Positions 1 to 50,781 of a stretch of 50,781 bases of DNA are shown piece after piece. Source of the DNA: a virus. The stretch is from IMG/VR virus record IMGVR_UViG_3300045988_030121, positions 1-50,781 of that record; one strand, given 5' to 3'. Both the position numbers and the translations under genes were made by a program. The notes below the pieces were generated by a model. It was not told the origin of the DNA and searched no databases. It worked only from the letters and a program-made list of their open reading frames with translations. Each line of letters opens with the position of its first letter. The stretch's first letter is position 1.

Positions 1-119
1 GAAATTCTCCATTTCCTCCCGGCGGTCAAGAAGATAGTTGGATGCAAGCACCATCACATCAACCGAGTTCGACCAAAACCATGAGCCGAAATATTCATCC
101 CCGTTCTGCAAGAAGAATC
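1..119. repeat. Terminal direct repeat, copy 1 (identical to 50663-50781); most likely a circularisation/assembly overlap
   Basis: By-eye comparison shows both copies identical over 119 bp. The repeat lies inside the exonuclease coding sequence. Confidence 0.9.
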
Positions 120-3785: not shown

Positions 3786-4555
3786 ATATCATTCACTTGG
3801 GTTTGTTTCTTGCCCTGTGCGGGCTTGTTGTCATAATTGCCCTCATATACTTTCATCCAATTCTGCGGGTTCTTGAAAATCCAATCAAATGATGCCCATG
3901 AGCCGTTGCGCATAAAATCGGAGTTCTGCATCTTCGTGAACACGGTTTCAAGGACGGCCATGTCACCTTTCATTTCTTCGATGCGGGACTTGATTTTCTT
4001 TTTCCGTTCATCGGTCAGCTTCATGATGCGCGGGAAAGAAATGCAGATGCGGTGATACATGGAAACAATTTCATCGAAATTCACCTTTTCATGCGAATCC
4101 GCATTATCTGATTTATCAGATATTAAAATATCTTTTTCTTTCCTTTCCTTTTCTTTTATAGCATTGCAAGTGTCTGAATTTTCATTGCAATTGCTCTGCA
4201 TTTGCATTTGTCCCCTTGATTTCCAAGAACTTATGGCGGCACTTTTTCGCTTTTCGGAAATCTCTTTCCGGCGAGAAAGCCGGGAATTTACGGATTCCGA
4301 CCAAAAGTTTTCACCATCATTTTGGAACAAATTGAAGTCTTTTATGACACTTTCCACATCTTTGCTTTCAATGTGCATAGCAAATGCAATGCTTTTGCAT
4401 TGTGCAAGAGACAACACCCCTCCCTGCTCATAAAGCTGTTCGATGATGCACCAATAAACACCGATTCCGGCAACGCCCTTTTCCATCAAAAGGGATTGCA
4501 ATTTCGGGTCATTCCGCGCATTGAAATCGTGTTGAAAATAAAATGTCTCTTTCAT
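3770..4555 (-). CDS. DUF4373 (Lin1244/Lin1753-like) replication-associated protein
   Basis: The N-terminus MKETFYFQHDFNARNDPKLQSLLMEKGVAGIGVYWCIIEQLYEQGG matches the DUF4373 pattern from memory. Adjacent to the DnaC-like gene. Confidence 0.6.
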   Translation of the reverse strand: MKETFYFQHDFNARNDPKLQSLLMEKGVAGIGVYWCIIEQLYEQGGVLSLAQCKSIAFAMHIESKDVESVIKDFNLFQNDGENFWSESVNSRLSRRKEISEKRKSAAISSWKSRGQMQMQSNCNENSDTCNAIKEKERKEKDILISDKSDNADSHEKVNFDEIVSMYHRICISFPRIMKLTDERKKKIKSRIEEMKGDMAVLETVFTKMQNSDFMRNGSWASFDWIFKNPQNWMKVYEGNYDNKPAQGKKQTQVNDIWPTQ

Positions 4556-5847: not shown

Positions 5848-6366
5848 TTAATCAAGGAACATTTCATTGTACAAGGCCGTGAATGTCTCTCCGAATTTGC
5901 GAGCTGTCGCGGACGATTTGAAGCAAAGCCGAGAACCGAAATTCGCATACGTATACGAAGCCGTGCTAGCCGTATGCGCATACACGAAGCCCGCATGGGG
6001 GGATTTATAGACAAACCACGGATAATATTTGTATTGGCTTGAATTTGAGAAATCAGGCACAAAGCCGTCAATCTTGTTCCATGCCTTTGCGATGATGGCC
6101 AGCTTATAGAAAGCCACGGCGGATTTTGCGATTCCATTGTCTCCTTTCAAGGCAATCGCGCTTTCGGGGATTCCGAGAAACTTGCAAGCATCGCCGAAAG
6201 TGAGGGGATAATCATCAATGTCTTTTTCCTCACACACCACATCGAAAACGGTATCAATCTGGTTGTCATCAATTGCTTCTGTCACAAATTCCGATGCTTC
6301 GACTTTCGTGTCAAATGTTCCGATGATGGAATCATCACTTTTGAGTTTTACGATAAATTTTTTCAT
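5848..6366 (-). CDS. Small DGR variable protein (remote second target carrying VR2)
   Basis: 172 aa with no signal peptide. The C-terminal part ...PHAGFVYAHTASTASYTYANFGSRLCF... is encoded by a 76-77-bp copy of the template repeat that differs only at template adenines. Confidence 0.8.
   Translation of the reverse strand: MKKFIVKLKSDDSIIGTFDTKVEASEFVTEAIDDNQIDTVFDVVCEEKDIDDYPLTFGDACKFLGIPESAIALKGDNGIAKSAVAFYKLAIIAKAWNKIDGFVPDFSNSSQYKYYPWFVYKSPHAGFVYAHTASTASYTYANFGSRLCFKSSATARKFGETFTALYNEMFLD
5921..5997 (-). repeat. DGR variable repeat 2 (VR2), homologous to TR 17902-17978
   Basis: Hand alignment is ungapped with 10 mismatches. All 10 are at plus-strand T of TR, that is A in the sense strand. 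Homology is lost beyond 5997. Confidence 0.85.
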
Positions 6367-6378
6367 TGTTGCGTTAAA

Positions 6379-7122
6379 TTAAAATGGTGTTTTGTCAAAT
6401 GGAATTGTCATCCCCGGTTCTGCGACATGGACGGTCTTGCCGGTTGCTTCCGCGATGCCGTCCTGAAATTCCCTTGCATTGGAATTGCCATCGGAAAGGT
6501 GAATCAAGACAATGTTGTTCACGGCTGTCAGGTCATTGGCTTCCATGATGGCCCTGCATGTATCAAAACTGCAATGGCTTCGCAAGGTGCGGTTCTTGAC
6601 CCTTTCCGGCAACTTTCCCGCCCTCACATTGGCTTCCAAGATGTCTTTCCGGAAATTGCATTCGATAAGAATGTTGTTCAAGCCCTGAAAGGTGTATTCA
6701 AGAAAGTATGTGTCGGTGGCGAACAAGGCCGTTCCCATTTCCGGGTGATGAATGAGAAATCCGAAAGGCTCACGGGCATCATGTTCAGTGTTGAACGGAT
6801 GCACGGTGAATGAGCCAATCTTATACGAATGCAATTCTTGCATCAAGTGGACACGCCGGGCATTGGTGATTCCAAGTTCCGCGGCCGTCCCGTTGGACAT
6901 CCAGCAATCAATGCCCGATTCAAGGCACTTTCCGGCTTGTTTGGCGTGGTCTTGATGCTCATGGCTTATCAAGCATCCAACCACCCCCGATATGTCGAAA
7001 TTAAGGGCTTTTTTGATGTCCTTGAAAGACACGCCGCATTCCACCATCAGGATTTCACCGTCCGATGCCCGGAACAAGTAACAATTGCCTTTTGAGGATG
7101 AACCCAAGATTTGCAAATTCAT
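6379..7122 (-). CDS. MBL-fold metallo-hydrolase (putative recombination-associated nuclease)
   Basis: HxHxDH motif LISHEHQDHAK. 247 aa, next to recT. Confidence 0.85.
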   Translation of the reverse strand: MNLQILGSSSKGNCYLFRASDGEILMVECGVSFKDIKKALNFDISGVVGCLISHEHQDHAKQAGKCLESGIDCWMSNGTAAELGITNARRVHLMQELHSYKIGSFTVHPFNTEHDAREPFGFLIHHPEMGTALFATDTYFLEYTFQGLNNILIECNFRKDILEANVRAGKLPERVKNRTLRSHCSFDTCRAIMEANDLTAVNNIVLIHLSDGNSNAREFQDGIAEATGKTVHVAEPGMTIPFDKTPF

Positions 7123-15467: not shown

Positions 15468-15980
15468 TTATTCGGTTTGCGGCTTGTCCTTGTCCAAGAG
15501 GATGTCGGAAAGGGGGACATCAAGATGCCTTTCGGCCTTGTTTACCATAATGCGCTGCAAGGCTTTGGCAATCTTGTTGTCATTCTCGCTCGACCAATTT
15601 TCAAGGCAAGACCATGTTTCGTAAAAAAGGAAAACACCCACAACAAAACGCACGGCAAATCCATCATCACCCTTTATCACAAGTTCATCAACATACGATG
15701 CAAGCATGATGCACATGAAGATGATTATCATGGTGTATATGATTTGAAACTTGTGGACTGACTTGAATTTCCCATCCGATTGATTAGGGTATTTCCGGTG
15801 AACACGCCGCCCAAGACTGTAAGCCGTAATCACATCAAGCAAGATGGCGATGAAGCACGGCACAAGAAAGACGATGCTTGTCTCAAATGCCAAGAGCAAC
15901 CCGCCGGCGATGCTTGAAAGGTATTGGACAATCTTTGAACGGAATGTCATACCAAAATCATTCAATGGTATAGGTATCAT
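15468..15980 (-). CDS. Holin (Phage_holin_4_1-like multi-TM protein)
   Basis: Three or four hydrophobic helices. FYETWSCLENW resembles the E..SI.EN block of this holin family. Directly upstream of the amidase. Confidence 0.7.
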   Translation of the reverse strand: MIPIPLNDFGMTFRSKIVQYLSSIAGGLLLAFETSIVFLVPCFIAILLDVITAYSLGRRVHRKYPNQSDGKFKSVHKFQIIYTMIIIFMCIMLASYVDELVIKGDDGFAVRFVVGVFLFYETWSCLENWSSENDNKIAKALQRIMVNKAERHLDVPLSDILLDKDKPQTE

Positions 15981-15986
15981 CGCTTT

Positions 15987-16358
15987 TTAGGTAAATTGAA
16001 AACACTTTCCGACCTTGACGATTGTAGTGTCCAATGGATAAATGCTGATGCCCTTTGATTCCGCTTCTTGGATGGCCGCAATCAAGTTGTCTGACCCGGT
16101 GAAACATGACCGCCTTTCGCCACATGGCGTTCCATCCGCATTCTTCTTGTAGAAATCCCCGTTTGCATCCGGTTCATCCTCAAATGAAGCAAGAACCACT
16201 TGCATCTGCATCCTCAATCCCGATGTGTTCTTACCCGGAAAATTTGACGGCTTTATGAGGGTCTTTTCAATGAGAATCCTTTTTCCAAAGAGTTCATCCA
16301 TGTCAATACCCTTGCCGATGATTACATCGGAAGTGATGCCAAGTTCACTAAATCGCAT
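15987..16358 (-). CDS. Hypothetical protein
   Basis: 123-aa ORF with an ATG start, between the RT and the holin. Confidence 0.55.
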   Translation of the reverse strand: MRFSELGITSDVIIGKGIDMDELFGKRILIEKTLIKPSNFPGKNTSGLRMQMQVVLASFEDEPDANGDFYKKNADGTPCGERRSCFTGSDNLIAAIQEAESKGISIYPLDTTIVKVGKCFQFT

Positions 16359-16372
16359 AGGCCGTCCATGTT

Positions 16373-16756
16373 TTAGTTCAACATTTCAATGATGGCCGCA
16401 TCCACATCCTCGGTGAATGCCAAAAATTCCTTGTATGCTTCCACGGCGGCATCATCCTGACGGATGGCCAAGATGTGCTTGTTGTAGGAGTTCACAAGGT
16501 CAAATTCGGCCGATTCATCAATGACGGAACGGATGAATGCCCGCTTGATATTCGCCTTTGTGGGGGCATCCCAAATGCGGATTTCCCGGCAATTGTACCC
16601 CACCAATTCGGCTTTCTTCTTGCCCTCCGGCACTTCCGTTTCCTCGGTGATGTTGAAACGGACGATGGTTGAACCGTCATTGTCTCTTTCGATGGCAAGC
16701 GGTCGGCCATTCACCACATCATAATGGGCGTTTGGCTCTAACGAATTTAATCTCAT
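16373..16756 (-). CDS. Hypothetical acidic protein immediately downstream of the DGR RT
   Basis: 127-aa ORF. Its ATG at 16756 overlaps the RT 3' end by 38 nt. Confidence 0.5.
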   Translation of the reverse strand: MRLNSLEPNAHYDVVNGRPLAIERDNDGSTIVRFNITEETEVPEGKKKAELVGYNCREIRIWDAPTKANIKRAFIRSVIDESAEFDLVNSYNKHILAIRQDDAAVEAYKEFLAFTEDVDAAIIEMLN

Positions 16757-17750
16757 AAGGAAATGATTTAGAAAGTTTATTCAAAAGATTGATTGAGTTG
16801 CAGTATTTGCACCAACCCCACCACGAACATATTTGCTGCTTGTATTTCTCCATTGTAGGCACAATCTTTCTCTTGTTGAGAATCGCCACCCGGCGGCAAA
16901 GTGCCTGTTTGATGGACTTGCGCAACCTTGTATGAGTGTGACGGAACACATAACCAACGAAGTCAATTCCACGCGCATCAACCGGGAACACCTGATAATT
17001 CTTCTTGACTTTCAATTTCAGATTGTCACGAAGATAGGCGCGGATGTCATGCATGAGTGAATGCAAGAAATCCTTGTCATCGGATAGAATCACGATGTCA
17101 TCGGCATACCGGGAATAATGCTTGACACCTTTCCTTTCTTTCAACCAATGGTCGAAATATGCCAAATACAAATTGGCAAAATATTGGGAAAGGTAGTTGC
17201 CGATGGGGACACCCGCCGGCACGGAATCAATGATTTCATCAAGCAATGCCAAAAGCCTTTCATCTTTCAGCTTCCGGCGCACGATGCCTTTCAGGATGTC
17301 ATGGTCAATGGATGGATAGAACTTGCGGATGTCCATCTTCAAGCAATAGACCGTTCCTTTCGGGTCGGTTTTCAAGGCATGGCGCACCGCCCTTGCACAA
17401 GCATGGATTCCCCGGTTCTTGATGCAAGAATAGGTGTTGCCGTTGAAAATTCCCACCCAAATCGGCTCCATCACATTCATGATGGCATGATGCAAGATTC
17501 TGTCAGGATAGTAAGGCAAACGGAAAATCTGCCTTTCTTTCGGCTCAAAGATTGTGAAGATATGATATTTTGAAGTGTGAAATGTACCGTTCACCAATTC
17601 CTCATGCAAATGCATCAGGTTCGCATCCCGGTTCTTGTCATGGACACGGACACCATAAGACTTCAACTTGCCCTTGCGGGCTTTGTCATCCGCAAGGCGC
17701 AAATTTTCAAGGCTTATGACCTTATCAAAAAGGTTTGCAATTCGCTTCAT
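16719..17750 (-). CDS. DGR-type reverse transcriptase
   Basis: 343 aa. RT motifs include YPSIDH, the DGR hallmark PIGNYLSQYFANLYL, and the catalytic YADD. Sits immediately 3' of the TR. Confidence 0.93.
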   Translation of the reverse strand: MKRIANLFDKVISLENLRLADDKARKGKLKSYGVRVHDKNRDANLMHLHEELVNGTFHTSKYHIFTIFEPKERQIFRLPYYPDRILHHAIMNVMEPIWVGIFNGNTYSCIKNRGIHACARAVRHALKTDPKGTVYCLKMDIRKFYPSIDHDILKGIVRRKLKDERLLALLDEIIDSVPAGVPIGNYLSQYFANLYLAYFDHWLKERKGVKHYSRYADDIVILSDDKDFLHSLMHDIRAYLRDNLKLKVKKNYQVFPVDARGIDFVGYVFRHTHTRLRKSIKQALCRRVAILNKRKIVPTMEKYKQQICSWWGWCKYCNSINLLNKLSKSFPYEIKFVRAKRPL

Positions 17751-17902
17751 TGGTTTGCTTGAATAATAGGCTTCTTCATGGCCTTATGGCATTACCAAAG
17801 CCGTTTTTCGGTATGTAATCTTTTGCCGTTGATTGCTCAACTCATTCAACCCCCGATGGGCCGTTTTTGTGGCAAGGTTTCCGGTATGCAATAAATTTTA
17901 CA

Positions 17903-18016
17903 AGCATAGCTGAGAACCGATATTCGCATTCGTATTCGAAGCCGTGTTATTCGTATTCGCATACACGAAGCCCGCATTCGCACCATTATTCGCATTACCG
18001 CTGAACAACACGCCGC
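17903..18016 (-). repeat. DGR template repeat (TR), 114 bp
   Basis: Non-coding. In the VR frame it reads GVLFSGNANNGANAGFVYANTNNTASNTNANIGSQLC, which is rich in AAY codons. Homologous to VR1 (offset +214) and to VR2. Confidence 0.9.
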
Positions 18017-18090
18017 CGACACCGGACAACCCTTTCTTTTTCATTTCACACCCAAAATGTCACATTTCGATTTGTGCGCTTCGCGCCGAT

Positions 18091-19407
18091 TTATGCGGCC
18101 GCCCGATTTGCGGAATAGCAAAGCCGAGAACCGAAATACGCACCCGTATACGAAGCCGCGCGAGACGTATTCGCAGACACGAAGCCCGCAGACCCACCAT
18201 AATACGCAGCACCGCCGAACAACACGCCGCGTTCACTTACTCCACTATCGGGAATAGATGTGTAGAAGTAATCGCAGAAATATGTGGTTGAACCGCCACC
18301 AACGGCCGATGGCATGATTTCGCCATGTTCTCCCAAGCATATTGCCTTTACATATCCATCATTCCTCGGAAGTTCACCGCGCAACTCATAGTTTACGATT
18401 CCTGAACTTGTGAAGCTGGAAACATCATCGCAAACATAGAAAAGCGACTTGCCACCATCAGCTTCCGACTGAATCAGGCACTTGCAACCATCCGTCCACT
18501 TCCAAATGTGTCCGAAAGGATTTTCCACGCCACGATAAGACGGCACATGCTCAACGGTGGTTGTGGAATCATATTCGGTCGGCATGGTGTAATCCACGAT
18601 GCCCGTGTGATTGCCAAGAGAGTTCGTGACACCGCAAGGCACAACGGGATGATAACCATTAAATGCATTCCACTTGGAAGAATTGAGGTTCGTGACACCA
18701 TTGCCCAAACCGCCCTGACGATGGCCATTCGCATCAAGTTCGGCATTGAACTCCTTTTGCGAATTGAATGTGGCGTATTCCACGGCAAAGAGCCACCACA
18801 GCTTGCGATGGATGTGGTAGGTGTTGCAATTCCAATTCACGGAGCCGCGATTGCGGGCATAGGCCCTGAAATTGGTAAGCGATATTTCCGTTGCCGGCAT
18901 CCCAAGCATTGAACGGTAAGTGCCATCCCATGCCGAATTGTTGCCACCTCCACGATAATCCGCATCGGTGTTCACCACGGCCGCAAGTTTGTTCGTGCTT
19001 CTCTGCACGGTCGCTTCCACGGCCGAAACGAAGTCCCTGCCCCAAAGGGTGAATCCCGGAAGCGGGTATTCGGACATCAGGCAACGCGATTTGTCACCAT
19101 CGGTTTCAAAGCGGACATACATGTCCGGCAAATCAACCATGTACTGACCATCGGAGCCGTCAAGATTGGCGGCCGCGCCATTGTCCCGTTTCGTGGAATC
19201 ATTGGCATGAAGATAGTAATTGACCGTGCCGTCATCTTTGAGGATGCACCGGCGCATCAGGCTTTGAAGCGGGAGAGACTGATGCAATTCATCCTTGCCG
19301 ATTCGTGTCGGGTTCGGATTGGAGACGGTCGCATCCCACTCAATGCCATAATAGTAATCGTATGCGAATTTCGGCTTCGTATCACCGATTCCAATGACAA
19401 GTCCCAT
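18091..19407 (-). CDS. DGR target 1: tail receptor-binding protein with a variable C-terminal (C-type-lectin/FGE-like) domain
   Basis: 438 aa, located at the distal end of the tail module. The C-terminus GVLFGGAAYYGGSAGFVSANTSRAASYTGAYFGSRLCYSANRAAA is encoded by VR1. Confidence 0.88.
   Translation of the reverse strand: MGLVIGIGDTKPKFAYDYYYGIEWDATVSNPNPTRIGKDELHQSLPLQSLMRRCILKDDGTVNYYLHANDSTKRDNGAAANLDGSDGQYMVDLPDMYVRFETDGDKSRCLMSEYPLPGFTLWGRDFVSAVEATVQRSTNKLAAVVNTDADYRGGGNNSAWDGTYRSMLGMPATEISLTNFRAYARNRGSVNWNCNTYHIHRKLWWLFAVEYATFNSQKEFNAELDANGHRQGGLGNGVTNLNSSKWNAFNGYHPVVPCGVTNSLGNHTGIVDYTMPTEYDSTTTVEHVPSYRGVENPFGHIWKWTDGCKCLIQSEADGGKSLFYVCDDVSSFTSSGIVNYELRGELPRNDGYVKAICLGEHGEIMPSAVGGGSTTYFCDYFYTSIPDSGVSERGVLFGGAAYYGGSAGFVSANTSRAASYTGAYFGSRLCYSANRAAA
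18117..18230 (-). repeat. DGR variable repeat 1 (VR1)
   Basis: Ungapped 114-bp alignment to TR with 21 mismatches. 20 are at TR adenines (20 of 28 adenines changed). 1 is a C->G change at 17980/18194. Confidence 0.9.
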
Positions 19408-20028: not shown

Positions 20029-23000
20029 TCAATAGTTCCAATTTTGTGAAACAACATACCAATTGCCCATGTAGTATTGCAATTCAATCGTGTCTTGCTT
20101 GTTAAGGTCAATTTTGCTTGCCGTGCTTCTAGACCTGTATATGCTCCCAACGGCCGTGTTGTCAGATGATGACCGGCGCGGTGGCAAAAGAGCAATCTTA
20201 TTTGAAGCTGATGCGCTGACAATGATTCGGATTCGGAATGTGACAACCCGGCTTGACAATGCATTGTTCACCAAAGTGGCCGATGGCAAATACATTGACA
20301 TGTATGATGATGCAATGCCGGTGAACATGAATGTGTGGGTGATTTTGAATTGTTCTTCCAATGTATCCGTGTACGCCATCCCGATGAATCCAATATCATA
20401 TTCGCTCTTTTTGCCGATTGCAAGTTCATTCCCCAAGCGCTCAAACGCCAATGGCCGATACCACAAATCCATATTGTTTGCAAGAGCCGTGTTCGAAAGC
20501 AAGTATTTGGCAAGAAGCGCAATTCCACCATCGCCATAATCTGTTTCATTGACCATTTCAAAGCGCCCCGCGCCTTTCACGCCCGTTGAAGCCGGTATGG
20601 TGTTGCCAACACCCGCATACACCTTTGTGTCCATGCTTAAATCACGGATGTAGATGGCATCATTATAAATTGACAAGCCGGCATAAGCATCACCGGTGTT
20701 ATTGACACCGATGCGGCCATTGCCAATTTCAAAGCCCCCTATCGTGCCGGATGATGCATTGATTTTCCCCGTCACTTCCGCATTTGTCATTATGACCTTA
20801 CCATCCTGCCGGACACGAAAAGGAGCCGTTGCCCTGTTCTCAAATGATGCGCCCGCCCAAAAGCGGATGGATGATGCGGCCGTCCCTTGTCCCGTCATGC
20901 CCGCAAGGATGGATGCGTTGCTGCCGGCAACTTGGATGGTTCCCGATGTCACAAGCCCGCCATCAATCACCGTCTTTGTGTTGTCATAGGTGACGGCCAA
21001 AACCCAATCATTGACTTGATAAGAGCCGCTTGCCCTTGCGGTCGCACACCGGCGCAAATCCGTTCCATTGACCCACAAATCCCCGATGTCATAAGGGGGA
21101 TAAGGCGTTGTCACGAACACGCGCCGCTTGCCATCGGCCGTGTCTTGTGCCGTGGCCGCATTATTGTATGCATCAATGGCCTTTTGGTCATGGATGTCCA
21201 CCCATGCATAAGAAGATGAATACCGTTTCAGGGTGTTCGTGCTTGAATTGAACCACATGTCACCGACATGCTTTGCCTTGATTGCGGCAGTTGTCCAAGC
21301 CGTTGCCGGGTCGGATGTCTGAAACCACGATTCAATCTTGCCGTCAATCTGATTGACAAGGTTTTCGATGTCATTCGCATAAGTTCCATTGACAAAGTCA
21401 TTGAAAGCGGAATTGTCCGTGTATTTTGAAGCCTTTTCCCAATCGGATGCGGTATAATTGCCCGATGCCCTTGCGGTCTTGCACCTCATAATGTCACCGG
21501 ATGCGCCCTGAACCCACAAATCGCCCACATCATAAGGCGTGTAAGGGGTGGATGTGAAGATTCGGCGCTTTGTGCCGGCAAGTGCAAGTGCATCATTTGC
21601 GATTGCAAGCGCTTGCGCCACCTCGGAATCCTGCAATTCCTGCCACTTGTACACGCTATTTTCCTTGACCCATCGGAACACCTTGCCTGTGTTGGTGTTG
21701 TAGAACAAATCCCCCAAGTGGTTTTCCTTGTCGGTGGTTGTTGTCCATGAGGATGCCGGCAAATTGGCCGTTGTGGGGTCATAAGTGTCAAAGAATTGCT
21801 CAATCTGACCATCCAATTGGGCTTGAATCTCACTCAAAATGCCCGGCAATGTGTTGTTGATGTAATTCTTTGTTTCAAGGGATTCCGCCCCAAGCTGTTC
21901 AAGGGTCTTTTCCTGACCATTGGAAGAAAAGACGATGCGGCCGCCAATTTCCCCATTGTCCAAGTCAAAGTAAGTGTCCCCATCCGCGGATTGGATGCGG
22001 CCGGTCTTGATGAAGCGGCCATTGACCATTGTGAAACCGTAAGTCAATGAAAGGGAGCGCACACCCAAATCGGGGTCAATGGATGACGCCGTGCCAATCA
22101 GGAAGTGCCAATAATTCGCATCATCTTCGACCTTGATTTGCTCGGTTGAGAAAAGGAATGTTCCACCCGTTGCCCCGTCCGCTTTCGGGCATTTGGCATA
22201 AAGGTAATATGGCACATTCTGACTGAATGTGACCGAACCATCAGCCATTGCCCACGACCTGATACCATCTTCGATGATGGTGTAATGGGTCAGAACACCG
22301 CCCTGCCACCTCATTGAATTGGCATTGCCGTTGTAATTCGGTTGAAAGACGGTATTTGTCAGGCCGAATTGCATTGATTTCGCACCCACGGACAACAATT
22401 GCGTGTCAATGGAAAGGGGCTTGATTTTCTCCGTGTAATAATCACCCTCCGCATCGAACACCATGTCAAGCAATTCCCGGCTTGTGCGCCAATTCGCCCT
22501 TGCTCTTATGGGGTCTTTCAAATTGTTGATAGTGAGAATGTTATCAATATCAATCAATTCGGAAATCACACGATTGGTGATATTGGTTGTCACCGTGTCG
22601 GAAATGGTCAGCTTGTAATCATATTCATCAAGAAGATTTCTTGTGAATGACTTGATACGCACTGACTTATCCACACCGATGTCATCATCCTTGATTGGAA
22701 GATAATCACCAGGAGTGAACACATTGACAATCGCGCCACCCGTTCCCACCAGCTTTTCAAGGTATTCTTTGGTTACTGAAAGGCTGTATTTGACTTTCGG
22801 TTGGCTGTTTTGGTTGTAGTAAGTTTGCGCGGTTTCCTGCAACTTGTTTTCGGCCGCGGTTATGAGCGCATCGGGCAAGGCGATTTGAAGTATCTTGTAT
22901 TCATCCCCGGCCGCGAATTGGAATGCCGTGCTTGTCTCGCTTGGGAATACCGCGCCACGGGCATCCGTGTATTTCTTCAACTTGAACTTGTGCGTTGCAT

Positions 23001-50551: not shown

Positions 50552-50781
50552 TCACTTCACGATGTCATAAATAAGTTTTGTCAATTCTATGTCATACTGA
50601 GCATCATGCAAGGCATCATCTTCAACGGCAATATTCAGGAACTTGGCAACCGTGGAAAGTTTGAAATTCTCCATTTCCTCCCGGCGGTCAAGAAGATAGT
50701 TGGATGCAAGCACCATCACATCAACCGAGTTCGACCAAAACCATGAGCCGAAATATTCATCCCCGTTCTGCAAGAAGAATC
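50552..50781 (-). CDS. C-terminal part of the DEDDh exonuclease gene that starts at position 450 (50663-50781 duplicates 1-119)
   Basis: HDAQYD ExoIII motif. The frame is continuous with 1..450 across the circular junction. Confidence 0.85.
   Translation of the reverse strand, partial: FFLQNGDEYFGSWFWSNSVDVMVLASNYLLDRREEMENFKLSTVAKFLNIAVEDDALHDAQYDIELTKLIYDIVK
50663..50781. repeat. Terminal direct repeat, copy 2 (identical to 1-119)
   Basis: By-eye comparison, exact match. Confidence 0.9.

What the first reader, a model, noticed from the sequence alone, without database searches (positions are those of the whole stretch)
16719..19407. Complete diversity-generating retroelement targeting the distal tail receptor-binding gene
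On the minus strand the order is target ORF 19407->18091, TR 18016->17903, then RT 17750->16719. The RT has the DGR-specific motif PIGNYLSQYFANLYL and the catalytic YADD.

TR (17903-18016) aligns with VR1 (18117-18230) over 114 bp without gaps. There are 21 mismatches. 20 are at template adenines (20 of 28 adenines changed), and one is a C->G change at 17980/18194. In the VR frame TR reads GVLFSGNANNGANAGFVYANTNNTASNTNANIGSQLC, which is rich in AAY codons. VR1 reads GVLFGGAAYYGGSAGFVSANTSRAASYTGAYFGSRLC.

The string CAAATCG occurs just 3' of both VRs (plus-strand cgatttg at 18104-18110 and 5914-5920) but not 3' of TR. A small GC hairpin (GCGC-GAA-GCGC, about 18077-18087) follows the VR1 gene stop codon. 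These are candidate IMH-like and cruciform determinants, but the evidence is weak.
Basis: partly seen in the sequence, partly recalled or inferred. Interest (0 to 1): 0.8.

Follow-up and report, generated by a model that had tools for sequence, protein, structure and literature searches.

The report
Avd-less phage DGR with two targets
This is a genuine, intact diversity-generating retroelement in a gut Bacteroidales prophage; it rewrites the tip of a tail protein and also a small early-gene protein, belongs to an already known Avd-less class of DGRs, and is always followed by an uncharacterised small gene that may be its missing helper.

Summary
TR 17903-18016(-) and VR1 18117-18230(-) align over 114 nt without gaps. 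There are 21 mismatches, 20 at TR adenines (20/28 A; Fisher p=6e-15). The RT's best solved relative is the Bordetella DGR RT (E=9e-49; group II RT 8.5e-20). The DGR reading is supported.

A second variable repeat, VR2 (5922-5996), lies in a 172-aa protein of the replication/recombination module. It copies only the 3' 75 nt of TR, with 9-10 mismatches, all at adenines.

Across 73 related loci, TR/VR mismatches are 1260 at A and 43 elsewhere. Near-identical natural copies of both targets differ almost only at AAY-coded codons.

Comparison also defines:
- an IMH/IMH* pair, including a fixed synonymous difference;
- a DGR RNA with strong covariation, including an 11-bp helix that clamps TR.

No Avd is detectable. 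A ~100-aa family that includes p123 (15987-16358) follows this RT clade almost without exception.

The kind is known (lineage-3, Avd-less; two-target phage DGRs exist), so this is a new member. A C-type-lectin fold for the targets could not be confirmed.

The parts
18091..19407 (-). Target gene 1 (438 aa), the last gene of the tail module; VR1 encodes residues ~394-431
   Evidence: ORF. PHROG 5302 'tail protein', E=9e-119. It lies downstream of the tape-measure-like ORF and the 1329-aa tail ORF. The 10 most variable columns of the family alignment are all AAY-coded VR positions.
18117..18230 (-). VR1, 114 nt
   Evidence: 21 mismatches to TR, 20 of them at TR adenines. The same register is found in 73 related loci: 1260 mismatches at A against 43 elsewhere.
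18117..18134 (-). Candidate IMH, TCGGTTCTCGGCTTTGCT (3' end of VR1; identical at VR2, 5922-5939)
   Evidence: It differs from TR at positions 106 (A>G in 73/73 loci) and 110 (A>T in 63/63 loci; a synonymous CTA>CTT change). Where TR has G at position 109, VR still has T (10/10).
18068..18110 (-). Flank downstream of VR1: CAAATCG (18104-18110), AAATCG (18087-18092), hairpin GCGC-GAA-GCGC (18076-18086), AAATCG (18068-18073)
   Evidence: Coordinates. Over 44 distinct related flanks AAATCG occurs 1.5 times per 70 nt, against 0.03 in shuffles. GC-rich hairpins of 4-6 bp with GAA or GTAA loops and differing stem sequences lie 13-21 nt after VR.
18021..18032 (-). 5' strand of RNA helix P1, just upstream of TR (GGGTTGTCCGGT)
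   Evidence: Pairs with 17875-17885. Of 11 pairs, 7 show compensatory changes and 99.5% of cells are paired.
17903..18016 (-). TR (template repeat), 114 nt with 28 adenines; its 3' end (17903-17920) is the IMH*, TCGGTTCTCAGCTATGCT
   Evidence: TR is far more conserved than VR among relatives: 0-11 differences against 10-26 in the 3' 75 nt.
17751..17902 (-). Spacer (Sp) part of the DGR RNA, 152 nt. Helices: P1 3' strand 17875-17885; P2 17871-17874/17824-17827; P3 17858-17862/17848-17852; P4 17837-17841/17828-17832; P5 17797-17802/17769-17774; P6 (tetraloop ATAA here, GNRA in most relatives) 17790-17792/17778-17780. CAAGCA at 17756-17761 is complementary to the TR 3' end TGCTTG (17901-17906).
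   Evidence: RNAalifold found P1-P6 on its own. Pair counts: 98.5% paired, 167 double-change cells against 34 in shuffles (0/500 shuffles reach this), and the slid controls collapse. Coordinates. The TR:Sp complementarity is invariant in 53/53 sequences, with G:C replaced by A:U in 2. No Rfam family matches.
16719..17750 (-). DGR reverse transcriptase (343 aa)
   Evidence: PDB: bRT 8ub7_A E=9e-49 over residues 2-328, against group II RT 8.5e-20 and retron RT 7.8e-17. Pfam RVT_1. PHROG 1423 E=4e-121. All NCBIfam group II, retron and Drt models score below their cut-offs.
16373..16756 (-). p127, an acidic small ORF that overlaps the RT 3' end by 38 nt; possible cassette member
   Evidence: Follows the RT in 76/76 viral loci and in 36/77 genome loci. 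pI ~4.8. No Pfam or PDB match.
15987..16358 (-). p123, a member of a ~100-aa family (PHROG 19665) coupled to this RT clade; candidate accessory protein
   Evidence: Homologues lie within 1.3 kb downstream of the RT in 76/76 viral and 69/77 genome loci. Seeding from the family instead, 79/79 loci have a DGR RT ending less than 200 nt upstream. It also follows the RT in the archaeal viruses ANMV-1 and vir525. Alignment A6.
5848..6366 (-). Target gene 2 (t172, 172 aa, acidic), inside the replication/recombination module
   Evidence: Neighbours are a RecT-like protein, an SbcC-like ATPase, an MBL hydrolase and a DnaD-like loader. The family has 1640 members and no Pfam domain. Members that are near-identical elsewhere differ almost only within the VR motif HAGFVxAxTxxxASxxxAxxGSRLC.
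5922..5996 (-). VR2, matching TR positions 39/40-114
   Evidence: 9-10 mismatches, all at TR adenines (of 20-21), and 0 of 55 at other bases; p=8e-7. In 18/18 related contigs that carry both genes, VR2 matches that contig's own TR from about position 41.
5892..5920 (-). Flank downstream of VR2: CAAATCG (5914-5920), hairpin GCGA-CAGC-TCGC (5899-5910), AAATTCG (5892-5898)
   Evidence: This stretch is coding sequence, so protein constraints confound the signal. The motif is less regular in related VR2 flanks.

Best explanation
The locus is an intact DGR of the Avd-less 'lineage 3' type, with the order target-VR-TR-RT. It is carried by a temperate siphovirus-like phage of Bacteroidales.

Inferred mechanism, by analogy with Bordetella phage BPP-1:
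1. An RNA is made that covers about 25 nt upstream of TR, TR itself and the 152-nt spacer.
2. An 11-bp helix forms between the TR 5' flank and the start of the spacer. It closes TR into a loop, like the BPP-1 'cPRT Stop' duplex.
3. The rest of the spacer folds into a three-way junction and a tetraloop-capped stem.
4. The spacer sequence CAAGCAAAC pairs with the TR 3' end and probably supplies the cis-priming site.
5. The RT copies TR and misincorporates opposite adenines.
6. The cDNA replaces VR1 (all 114 nt; tail protein) or VR2 (the 3' 75 nt; the early protein t172).
7. Direction is set by the IMH TCGGTTCTCGGCTTTGCT, which both VRs share and which TR's IMH* alters at two positions. The 5' junction is set by where homology ends.

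Shown here:
- the repeats and their adenine bias;
- the RT's clade;
- the fixed IMH/IMH* differences;
- covariation in the RNA;
- natural variation at AAY codons in both targets.

Inferred only:
- the priming site;
- the homing steps;
- that the two RT-coupled small ORFs (above all the p123 family) stand in for Avd.
For: - Adenine-specific TR/VR1 mismatches, p=6e-15, and TR/VR2, p=8e-7.
- 73 related loci in the same register: 1260 mismatches at A, 43 elsewhere.
- 18/18 contigs with a matching VR2.
- The RT is nearest to bRT: 170 bits against 74 for a group II RT. It is 52.8% identical to the crAssphage LMMB RT, which its authors place in lineage 3 with no avd (PMC7290462).
- Fixed IMH/IMH* differences, one synonymous and one at a non-adenine.
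- RNA helices P1-P6: 98.5% of cells paired, 20 of 33 pairs with compensatory changes, 0/500 shuffles as high, slid controls collapse.
- These helices parallel the duplex and tetraloop stem described for BPP-1 and 207 other DGRs (bioRxiv 10.1101/2023.10.23.563531).
- Near-identical natural proteins differ almost only at VR codons.
- No Avd: none of 38 small ORFs hits PF05635 at E<=0.1, and there are none among the precomputed Pfam hits.
- The p123 family is tied to the RT in both directions.
Against: - VR1 is identical in three independent samples that carry this exact phage. Activity in this particular genome is therefore not shown.
- One VR1 mismatch is not at an adenine.
- The target folds could not be confirmed. 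The AlphaFold2 model of the 438-aa target failed (pLDDT 39.5). The t172 model has a disordered VR and no PDB match.
- The proposed TR:spacer priming duplex is almost invariant, so covariation support is thin (2 sequences).
- The role of p123 and p127 rests on association only. The window's own p123 is acidic (pI 5.15), whereas its distant relatives are basic.
- BPP-1 bRT needs Avd for activity, and nothing here shows how this RT does without it.
Confidence: 0.9

Rival explanations
1. It is a fossil DGR. The adenine-biased differences record past activity, and the element no longer diversifies its targets in this phage.
For: VR1 is identical in three samples with this exact RT. VR1 has one non-adenine mismatch. 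The window's p123 carries a 24-aa insertion and is acidic, unlike its relatives.
Against: The RT is full length, has YADD and aligns end to end with bRT. TR, the IMH/IMH* pair and all RNA helices are intact. Proteins 92-97% identical to each target differ mainly at VR codons, which implies recent turnover in very close relatives.
Confidence: 0.07
2. It is a canonical Avd-dependent DGR, and its Avd is too diverged to detect or is supplied by the host or another prophage.
For: BPP-1 bRT is inactive without Avd, and the spacer here has a tetraloop-capped stem resembling the Avd-binding stem-loop. Avd genes are known to be very poorly conserved (PMC5758913).
Against: No PF05635 hit in any small ORF at E<=0.1. 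hhalign of the p123 and p127 families against BPP-1 Avd gives probabilities below 1%. Wu et al. searched genomes of avd-less DGRs with profiles and found no avd elsewhere, and lineage 3 as a whole lacks it. The phage moves between many Bacteroidales hosts, which makes a factor supplied in trans unlikely.
Confidence: 0.1
3. It is not a DGR. The repeats are an ordinary duplication, and the RT belongs to a retron, a group II intron or a defence system (Drt or Abi).
For: NCBIfam's best partial hits are the group II, Drt3a and retron models, because that library returned no DGR-specific model.
Against: All those hits fall far below the curated cut-offs: 115 bits against 300, 82 against 200, 61 against 235. 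bRT is by far the best solved relative. The mismatch spectrum is adenine-specific in 73 loci. There is no intron RNA or msr/msd match in Rfam.
Confidence: 0.01
4. p127 and p123 are ordinary phage genes, for example lysis-module or morphogenesis genes, that merely sit next to the RT and play no part in retrohoming.
For: They lie between the RT and the holin/endolysin genes. In BPP-1 small unrelated ORFs also follow brt before the endolysin. p127 is confined mainly to one phage lineage. crAss-like DGRs of the same lineage lack a detectable p123.
Against: p123-like genes follow the RT in Mu-like prophages, siphoviruses and archaeal viruses whose other neighbours are unrelated. 79/79 loci seeded from the family have the RT directly upstream, often with overlapping stop and start codons.
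Confidence: 0.4

Closest known systems
Bordetella phage BPP-1 DGR (mtd-avd-TR-brt)
   Same: - The RT aligns over its full length (E=9e-49) and shares the I/LGxxxSQ motif.
- VR lies at the 3' end of a tail gene and the mismatches are adenine-specific.
- There are IMH/IMH* differences at the 3' ends of the repeats, and a GC hairpin after VR.
- A spacer RNA of ~150 nt lies between TR and the RT. [quoted passage not shown]
   Different: - There is no avd gene; only 74 nt separate the target's stop codon from TR.
- A second, remote target exists.
- The catalytic motif is YADD, not YMDD.
- Small RT-coupled ORFs unrelated to Avd are present.
- The hairpin is only 4 bp with a 3-nt GAA loop.
Lineage-3 / Architecture-A DGRs (Wu et al. 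2018), e.g. crAssphage LMMB
   Same: - The order TG-VR(IMH)-TR(IMH*)-RT without avd.
- Hosts are Bacteroides and relatives.
- TR has 28 adenines in AAY-rich codons.
- The RTs are 52.8% identical.
   Different: - The host phage is a ~50-kb temperate siphovirus-like phage, not a crAss-like podovirus.
- It has a second target.
- It has p127 and p123 after the RT. LMMB instead has a ~95-aa C-terminal RT extension with no detectable similarity to p123.
Two-target phage DGRs (nd4/nd12 'tentaclin' phages; Faecalibacterium Toutatisvirus)
   Same: One TR serves two VRs in different genes, one adjacent and one many kb away (17.5 kb in Toutatisvirus, 12 kb here).
   Different: In those phages both targets are presumed virion or receptor-binding proteins (C-lec plus Ig; DUF6273). 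Here the remote target is a 172-aa acidic protein with no N-terminal hydrophobic stretch visible by eye, it lies inside the replication/recombination operon, and only part of TR is used.
Archaeal virus ANMV-1 DGR (Paul et al. 2015)
   Same: - The order is target, TR, RT, then a ~98-aa ORF.
- That ORF (AJP62065.1) is a p123-family homologue (41% identity, E=5e-8) starting 3 nt after the RT.
- GRA trinucleotide-loop hairpins downstream of VR are described in the same paper for archaeal (Nanoarchaeota) DGRs.
   Different: The host domain and the target protein (adtA) differ. That paper drew an ORF as 'Avd' in its ANMV-1 figure and, for the Nanoarchaeota DGRs, picked such small ORFs by pI and molecular weight. 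It did not define a sequence family.
Bacteroides Hankyphage DGR (Benler et al. 2018)
   Same: A temperate Bacteroides phage DGR. A small ORF near the RT was noted to have an Avd-like pI and molecular weight.
   Different: Hankyphage is a Mu-like phage with a 2225-aa target. There is no DNA similarity to this window.

Membership tests
Diversity-generating retroelement (DGR) | An RT of the DGR clade with the [I/L/V]GxxxSQ motif in domain 4 and an intact catalytic YxDD | tested here: met
   PIGNYLSQ and YADD are present. The best PDB relative is bRT, 8ub7_A, E=9e-49 over residues 2-328. PHROG 1423 E=4e-121. No formal phylogeny was run.
Diversity-generating retroelement (DGR) | A TR/VR pair whose differences fall almost only at TR adenines | tested here: met
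   VR1: 20 of 21 mismatches at A, p=6e-15. VR2: 9-10 of 9-10, p=8e-7. Family: 1260 against 43.
Diversity-generating retroelement (DGR) | VR lies at the 3' end of a protein-coding target, with adenines concentrated in the first two codon positions (AAY); TR lies next to the RT | tested here: met
   VR1 encodes residues ~394-431 of 438. VR2 encodes residues 124-149 of 172. TR has 12 AAY codons (11 AAT and 1 AAC) and lies 152 nt upstream of the RT.
Diversity-generating retroelement (DGR) | An IMH at the 3' end of VR and a non-identical IMH* at the 3' end of TR | tested here: met
   Two fixed differences occur in 73/73 and 63/63 loci. One is synonymous. The G>T case in 10 loci cannot be adenine mutagenesis. 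Both VRs carry the same IMH. Function was not tested.
Diversity-generating retroelement (DGR) | Ongoing diversification of VR in populations | tested here: met
   Targets that are near-identical elsewhere differ almost only at VR codons. For this exact genome the test is inconclusive, because VR1 is identical in 3 samples.
Diversity-generating retroelement (DGR) | cis-acting RNA around TR (spacer, and a duplex joining upstream and downstream sequences) | tested here: met
   Helices P1-P6 are supported by covariation. They are comparable to the elements reported by Handa et al..
BPP-1-type (Architecture B) DGR | An avd accessory gene (PF05635 four-helix bundle, basic, ~128 aa) | tested here: not met
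   No hit at E<=0.1 in 38 small ORFs. None in the precomputed Pfam hits for +/-10 kb. hhalign against BPP-1 Avd gives probabilities below 1%.
Lineage 3 / Architecture A DGR (Wu et al. 2018) | The order target-TR-RT with no avd, HRDC or MSL gene; hosts are Bacteroides and relatives | tested here: met
   Gene order. No Avd. Bacteroidales hosts. 52.8% identity to the lineage-3 LMMB RT.
Lineage 3 / Architecture A DGR (Wu et al. 2018) | The RT falls in the lineage-3 clade of the reference tree, and VR belongs to class CLec3 | not testable with these tools
   The reference RT set and the VR class profiles (myDGR) are not available here.
C-type-lectin-fold DGR variable proteins | The target's C-terminal domain adopts the CLec/FGE-sulfatase fold and VR forms the ligand-binding surface | tested here: inconclusive
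   No Pfam hit even at E<=10. No PDB hit with a profile. The AlphaFold2 model of the 438-aa target failed, pLDDT 39.5. The t172 model scores 78, but its VR is below 50 and Foldseek finds no PDB match. That the ...GSRLC ending resembles the GFRC(V/A)-type ending of CLec/FGE domains comes only from my own recollection.
Retron / group II intron / defence RTs (Drt, Abi) | Score above the family's curated cut-off, or the associated ncRNA or intron RNA | tested here: not met
   All NCBIfam hits are far below their cut-offs. No Rfam family matches anywhere in the window.

The most novel reading that the evidence does not exclude
The ~100-aa p123 family (PHROG 19665; no Pfam domain; everywhere annotated 'hypothetical protein') may be the so-far unrecognised accessory subunit that lets Avd-less DGR RTs work.

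- It is translationally coupled to the RT.
- Most members are basic, as Avd is.
- It is unrelated to Avd in sequence.
- It accompanies this RT clade from Bacteroidota phages to archaeal viruses.

A second open possibility is that the same element diversifies a cytoplasmic early protein (t172), i.e. a hypervariable intracellular binder rather than a receptor-binding protein.
Probability: 0.4. Interest if true: 0.65.

Novelty: new member of a known kind. Interest (0 to 1): 0.42.

Why it matters
As a DGR the element is ordinary. Gut Bacteroidales phages carry hundreds of close relatives: at least 596 in IMG/VR alone.

Its value is as a clean, complete example of the Avd-less class, whose mechanism is unresolved. 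Wu et al. concluded that an 'Avd-independent mutagenic homing' mechanism must exist.

The comparative data gathered here turn that question into experiments:
- a defined RNA scaffold;
- a defined IMH/IMH* pair;
- a candidate priming duplex;
- one or two candidate protein partners.

The conserved remote target inside an early operon also suggests that phage DGRs are used for more than host-range switching.

Tried and rejected
1. DNA similarity to annotated phages: none (megablast). By protein, the nearest are crAss-like DGR RTs at ~60% identity.
2. Rfam over the whole window: no family.
3. C-type-lectin test of the targets: Pfam, NCBIfam and PDB, by sequence and by profile, found nothing. The AlphaFold2 model of the 438-aa target was unusable (pLDDT 39.5). 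Foldseek of the t172 model found no PDB match and only uncharacterised gut-phage proteins in BFVD.
4. Avd search: negative in all small ORFs and by hhalign against BPP-1 Avd.
5. The idea that the ~95-aa C-terminal extension of crAss-like RTs is a fused p123 domain: no support (HMM and hhalign).
6. The idea that p123 resembles ribosomal protein bL31: the best PDB profile hit has E=0.054, which is not significant.
7. Whether BPP-1 bbp4, which also overlaps brt, is a p123 relative: no.
8. Whether Wu et al.'s 'CH1' accessory gene (160-169 aa, pI 4.7) equals p127 or t172: this could not be decided, because no supplementary sequences are held.
9. Seeding loci from the full p123 alignment (A6) and from the p127 family alignment: both failed because the alignments are too diverged. 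A narrower p123 alignment (A7) worked; p127 was not re-seeded.
10. AAATCG as a window-level oddity: the hexamer is common in this genome, with 66 copies. Only its clustering after VR1 and its recurrence in related flanks are notable.

Full report
**1. The observation**

On the minus strand the order is:
- target ORF 19407->18091 (438 aa);
- TR 18016->17903;
- RT ORF 17750->16719 (343 aa).

TR and VR1 (18230->18117) align over 114 nt without gaps. There are 21 mismatches: 8 A>T, 7 A>G, 5 A>C and one C>G at TR position 37. Thus 20 of 28 adenines differ against 1 of 86 other bases (Fisher p=6e-15). The translations, the RT motifs, the CAAATCG strings and the small GC hairpin are all present. The hairpin lies at 18076-18086, one base from the stated position. 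A repeat search finds a third copy at 5922-6035. Only its 3' 75 nt (5922-5996) are homologous to TR. There it has 9-10 mismatches, all at adenines, and none at the 55 other bases (p=8e-7).

**2. The genome**

- The window is ENA contig ERZ27229681 k119_316334.
- Its 119-bp terminal direct repeat equals the assembler's k-mer length, which suggests a circular genome.
- GC content is 47.8%.
- It encodes an integrase, a C5-methylase, RecT, SSB, an SPP1-type portal, a major capsid protein E, a holin and an amidase.
- Relatives are prophages in Alistipes, Bacteroides pyogenes, Prevotella, Parabacteroides and Muribaculaceae.
- No annotated phage is similar at the DNA level.

**3. The RT**

- Pfam reports RVT_1.
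- The best solved relative is the Bordetella DGR RT bRT (8ub7_A): E=9e-49, 170 bits, aligned over residues 2-328, including GVPIGNYLSQYFANLY against GIPIGSLTSQLFANVY.
- Group II and retron RTs score 74 bits or less.
- The NCBIfam group II, Drt and retron models all fall far below their cut-offs.
- The nearest annotated phage RTs are crAss-like DGR RTs at 50-61% identity. One is crAssphage LMMB at 52.8%. Its authors place it in lineage 3, with the order TG-VR(IMH)-TR(IMH*)-RT and no avd (PMC7290462).

Both fail to refute the DGR reading.

**4. Family-level evidence of activity**

- IMG/VR holds at least 596 relatives of the RT.
- In 73 loci where TR and VR are in the same register, mismatches number 1260 at TR adenines and 43 elsewhere.
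- TR is much more conserved than VR.
- In the target family the ten most variable columns of the 438-aa alignment are all AAY-coded VR positions. A 97%-identical homologue has 13 of its 16 differences inside VR.
- The second target shows the same pattern. Proteins 91-95% identical to it differ almost only within the motif HAGFVxAxTxxxASxxxAxxGSRLC.
- In 18/18 contigs that carry both the RT and a t172 homologue, VR2 matches that contig's own TR from about position 41 to 114, with about 245 mismatches at A and about 3 true non-A mismatches.
- A caveat applies to this exact phage. Three samples with the identical RT have an identical VR1, so current activity in this strain is not shown.

**5. IMH and downstream elements**

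Three TR adenines differ from VR in every locus and always in the same way: position 15 (A>G, 66/66), position 106 (A>G, 73/73) and position 110 (A>T, 63/63).
- The change at 110 is synonymous (CTA>CTT).
- In ten loci TR has G at position 109 while VR keeps T.
- Random adenine mutagenesis followed by protein selection cannot explain these cases. They look like the fixed IMH (VR: TCGGTTCTCGGCTTTGCT) and IMH* (TR: TCGGTTCTCAGCTATGCT) pair.
- VR1 and VR2 carry the same IMH.

Downstream of VR1 the window has CAAATCG, AAATCG, GCGC-GAA-GCGC and AAATCG within 43 nt.
- In 44 distinct related flanks AAATCG occurs 1.5 times per 70 nt, against 0.03 in shuffles.
- Short GC hairpins with GAA or GTAA loops and differing stems lie 13-21 nt after VR.
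- GRA trinucleotide-loop hairpins after VR were described for archaeal DGRs (PMC4372165).
- The evidence is moderate. The sequences are related to one another, the hexamer is common in this genome (66 copies), and the VR2 flank is coding.

**6. The DGR RNA**

An alignment of 53 distinct sequences runs from 25 nt upstream of TR to the RT start. On it RNAalifold predicts, and pair counting confirms, the following helices:
- P1, an 11-bp helix between the TR 5' flank (18021-18032) and the start of the spacer (17875-17885);
- a three-way junction, P2-P4;
- a stem, P5/P6, capped by a tetraloop (GNRA in most relatives; ATAA in the window's own copy).

Overall 98.5% of cells are paired and 20 of 33 pairs show compensatory changes. 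There are 167 double-change cells against 34 in shuffles (0/500 shuffles reach this), and the slid controls fall to 29-62% paired. One P1 pair alone occurs as AU in 28 sequences, UA in 17, GC in 7 and CG in 1.

The conserved spacer sequence CAAGCAAAC (17752-17761) is complementary to the TR 3' end TGCTTG (17901-17906).
- The pairing is invariant in 53/53 sequences. In two of the three sequences where the TR G is an A, the pair is AU; the third has an A·C mismatch.
- A similar AAGCAAAG motif sits before the RT start in distant relatives.
- By analogy with the BPP-1 TR:Sp template-primer duplex, I propose that cDNA is primed here. This is an inference with thin covariation support.
- If it is right, cDNA would start at or 5' of position 110. 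That fits the observation that TR information at positions 106 and 110 never reaches VR.

**7. Accessory proteins**

No Avd is detectable.
- PF05635 does not appear among the hits of 38 small ORFs at E<=0.1.
- It is absent from the precomputed Pfam hits around the RT.
- This matches lineage 3, which 'notably lacks avd'. For avd-less DGRs in general, profile searches found no avd elsewhere in the genomes (PMC5758913).

Two small ORFs follow the RT: p127 (16373-16756, overlapping the RT by 38 nt) and p123 (15987-16358).
- Against a 97%-identical relative, the conserved block runs from the target through p123, while both flanks are diverged.
- p123 belongs to a ~100-aa family (alignment A6; PHROG 19665; no Pfam domain; all members annotated 'hypothetical').
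- This family is the ORF immediately after the RT, usually overlapping its stop codon, in most distant Bacteroidota DGR loci.
- Family members lie within 1.3 kb downstream of the RT in 76/76 viral and 69/77 genome loci.
- Seeding from the family instead, 79/79 IMG/VR loci with enough upstream sequence have a DGR RT ending less than 200 nt upstream.
- The pairing holds in Mu-like prophages of Elizabethkingia and Mucilaginibacter. It also holds in the archaeal viruses ANMV-1 and vir525.
- Distant members are basic (pI ~8.8-9.3, close to Avd's 9.5). The window's copy is acidic because of a 24-aa insertion.
- Neither family resembles Avd by hhalign.
- Earlier papers flagged small ORFs near DGR RTs by pI and molecular weight only.

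I regard p123 as a candidate accessory factor with probability of about 0.4-0.5. p127 is a weaker candidate, and it is confined mainly to the siphovirus lineage.

**8. The targets**

Target 1 is the last gene of the tail module. It lies after a tape-measure-like ORF, a 403-aa ORF, a 1329-aa tail protein and a conserved 100-aa ORF, and it matches PHROG 5302 'tail protein'. A receptor-binding role is plausible but inferred.

Target 2 (t172) lies on the same strand, between an MBL-fold hydrolase next to RecT and a DnaD-like loader, that is, in the early replication/recombination operon.
- It is acidic, and I see no N-terminal hydrophobic stretch.
- Its family has 1640 members.
- In distant relatives of the RT clade, the protein directly upstream of TR-RT resembles t172 rather than the tail protein (26-48% identity). 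For example, in the Elizabethkingia Mu-like prophage a 154-aa ORF of unconfirmed identity lies just upstream of the RT.
- The small t172-type protein is therefore probably the usual target of this RT clade. The siphovirus lineage would then be the one that also aims the same TR at a tail protein.

Neither target could be assigned a C-type-lectin fold here.

**9. Comparison and verdict**

The element works like BPP-1's DGR and meets every defining DGR feature I could test. It fails only the Avd criterion, which defines the BPP-1 architecture and not DGRs as a whole. It fits the known Avd-less lineage-3 / Architecture-A class. Two-target phage DGRs are already described (PMC10743442; bioRxiv 10.1101/2024.10.15.618418).

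It is therefore a new member of a known kind, and a common one. The parts that a specialist might find useful are:
- the covariation-supported RNA scaffold of an Avd-less DGR;
- the sharply defined IMH/IMH* pair;
- the RT-coupled p123 family;
- the conserved early-operon target.

Noticed in passing
window 1-119 and 50663-50781: An exact 119-bp terminal direct repeat. The source contig is named k119_..., so the repeat equals the assembler's k-mer length. It most likely marks a circularly closed, complete phage genome rather than a biological terminal repeat.
   Followed up: partly
window 15980-19400 compared with L001: Against a relative whose RT is 97% identical, the block from the target gene through RT, p127 and p123 is ~95-99% identical, while both flanks have ~30-90 differences per 100 nt. 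The whole cassette appears to have moved between phage backbones as one module.
   Followed up: partly
window 6379-7122 (-): The MBL-fold hydrolase immediately upstream of target 2 has a faint precomputed hit to the Anti-Pycsar Apyc1 family (PF23023) beside a weak Lactamase_B hit. If real, the DGR-diversified t172 would sit next to an anti-defence gene.
   Followed up: no
window 18052-18058 (-), about 20 nt upstream of helix P1: ATTTTGG lies here. Related loci have TTTTGA, TTTTGG or TCTTGA at a similar distance upstream of the RNA's first helix. It may be a Bacteroidetes-type -7 (TAnnTTTG-like) promoter element for the DGR RNA. The promoter scanner on hand covers only sigma-70 consensus sites, so this was not tested.
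   Followed up: no
window 17898-18044 (-): TR sits inside a 48-codon ATG-initiated ORF, in the same frame as VR (MKKKGLSGVGGVLFSGNANNG...). It is probably a by-product of TR's origin rather than a gene. ANMV-1 has an annotated 64-aa ORF in the interval between its target gene and the RT.
   Followed up: no
window 21071-21129 and 21512-21570: A 59-nt imperfect direct repeat (71% identity) inside the 1329-aa tail protein gene. It is probably an internal protein repeat.
   Followed up: no
window, ORF not mapped (one or two of the 59 ORFs scanned): The proteome has strong Pfam hits to ADP-ribosylglycohydrolase (2e-40) and to an ADP-ribosyltransferase exoenzyme domain (1.5e-14). This suggests an ADP-ribosylation toxin or effector pair in the phage.
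   Followed up: no
L082 and L083 (ENA samples ERZ2660548 and ERZ949051): Contigs from two other samples carry the identical RT and an identical VR1, including the one non-adenine C>G change. The same phage clone is therefore shared between samples, or the DGR is rarely active in it.
   Followed up: partly
L332 (BPP-1) 1527-1775: In BPP-1 a small ORF (bbp4, 82 aa) also overlaps the 3' end of brt by 20 nt, ahead of the endolysin gene. It shows no similarity to the p123 family.
   Followed up: yes
L325 (crAssphage LMMB) 4015-4296: The crAss-like DGR RT is annotated with a ~95-aa C-terminal extension that the window's RT lacks. No similarity to p123 was detectable.
   Followed up: yes
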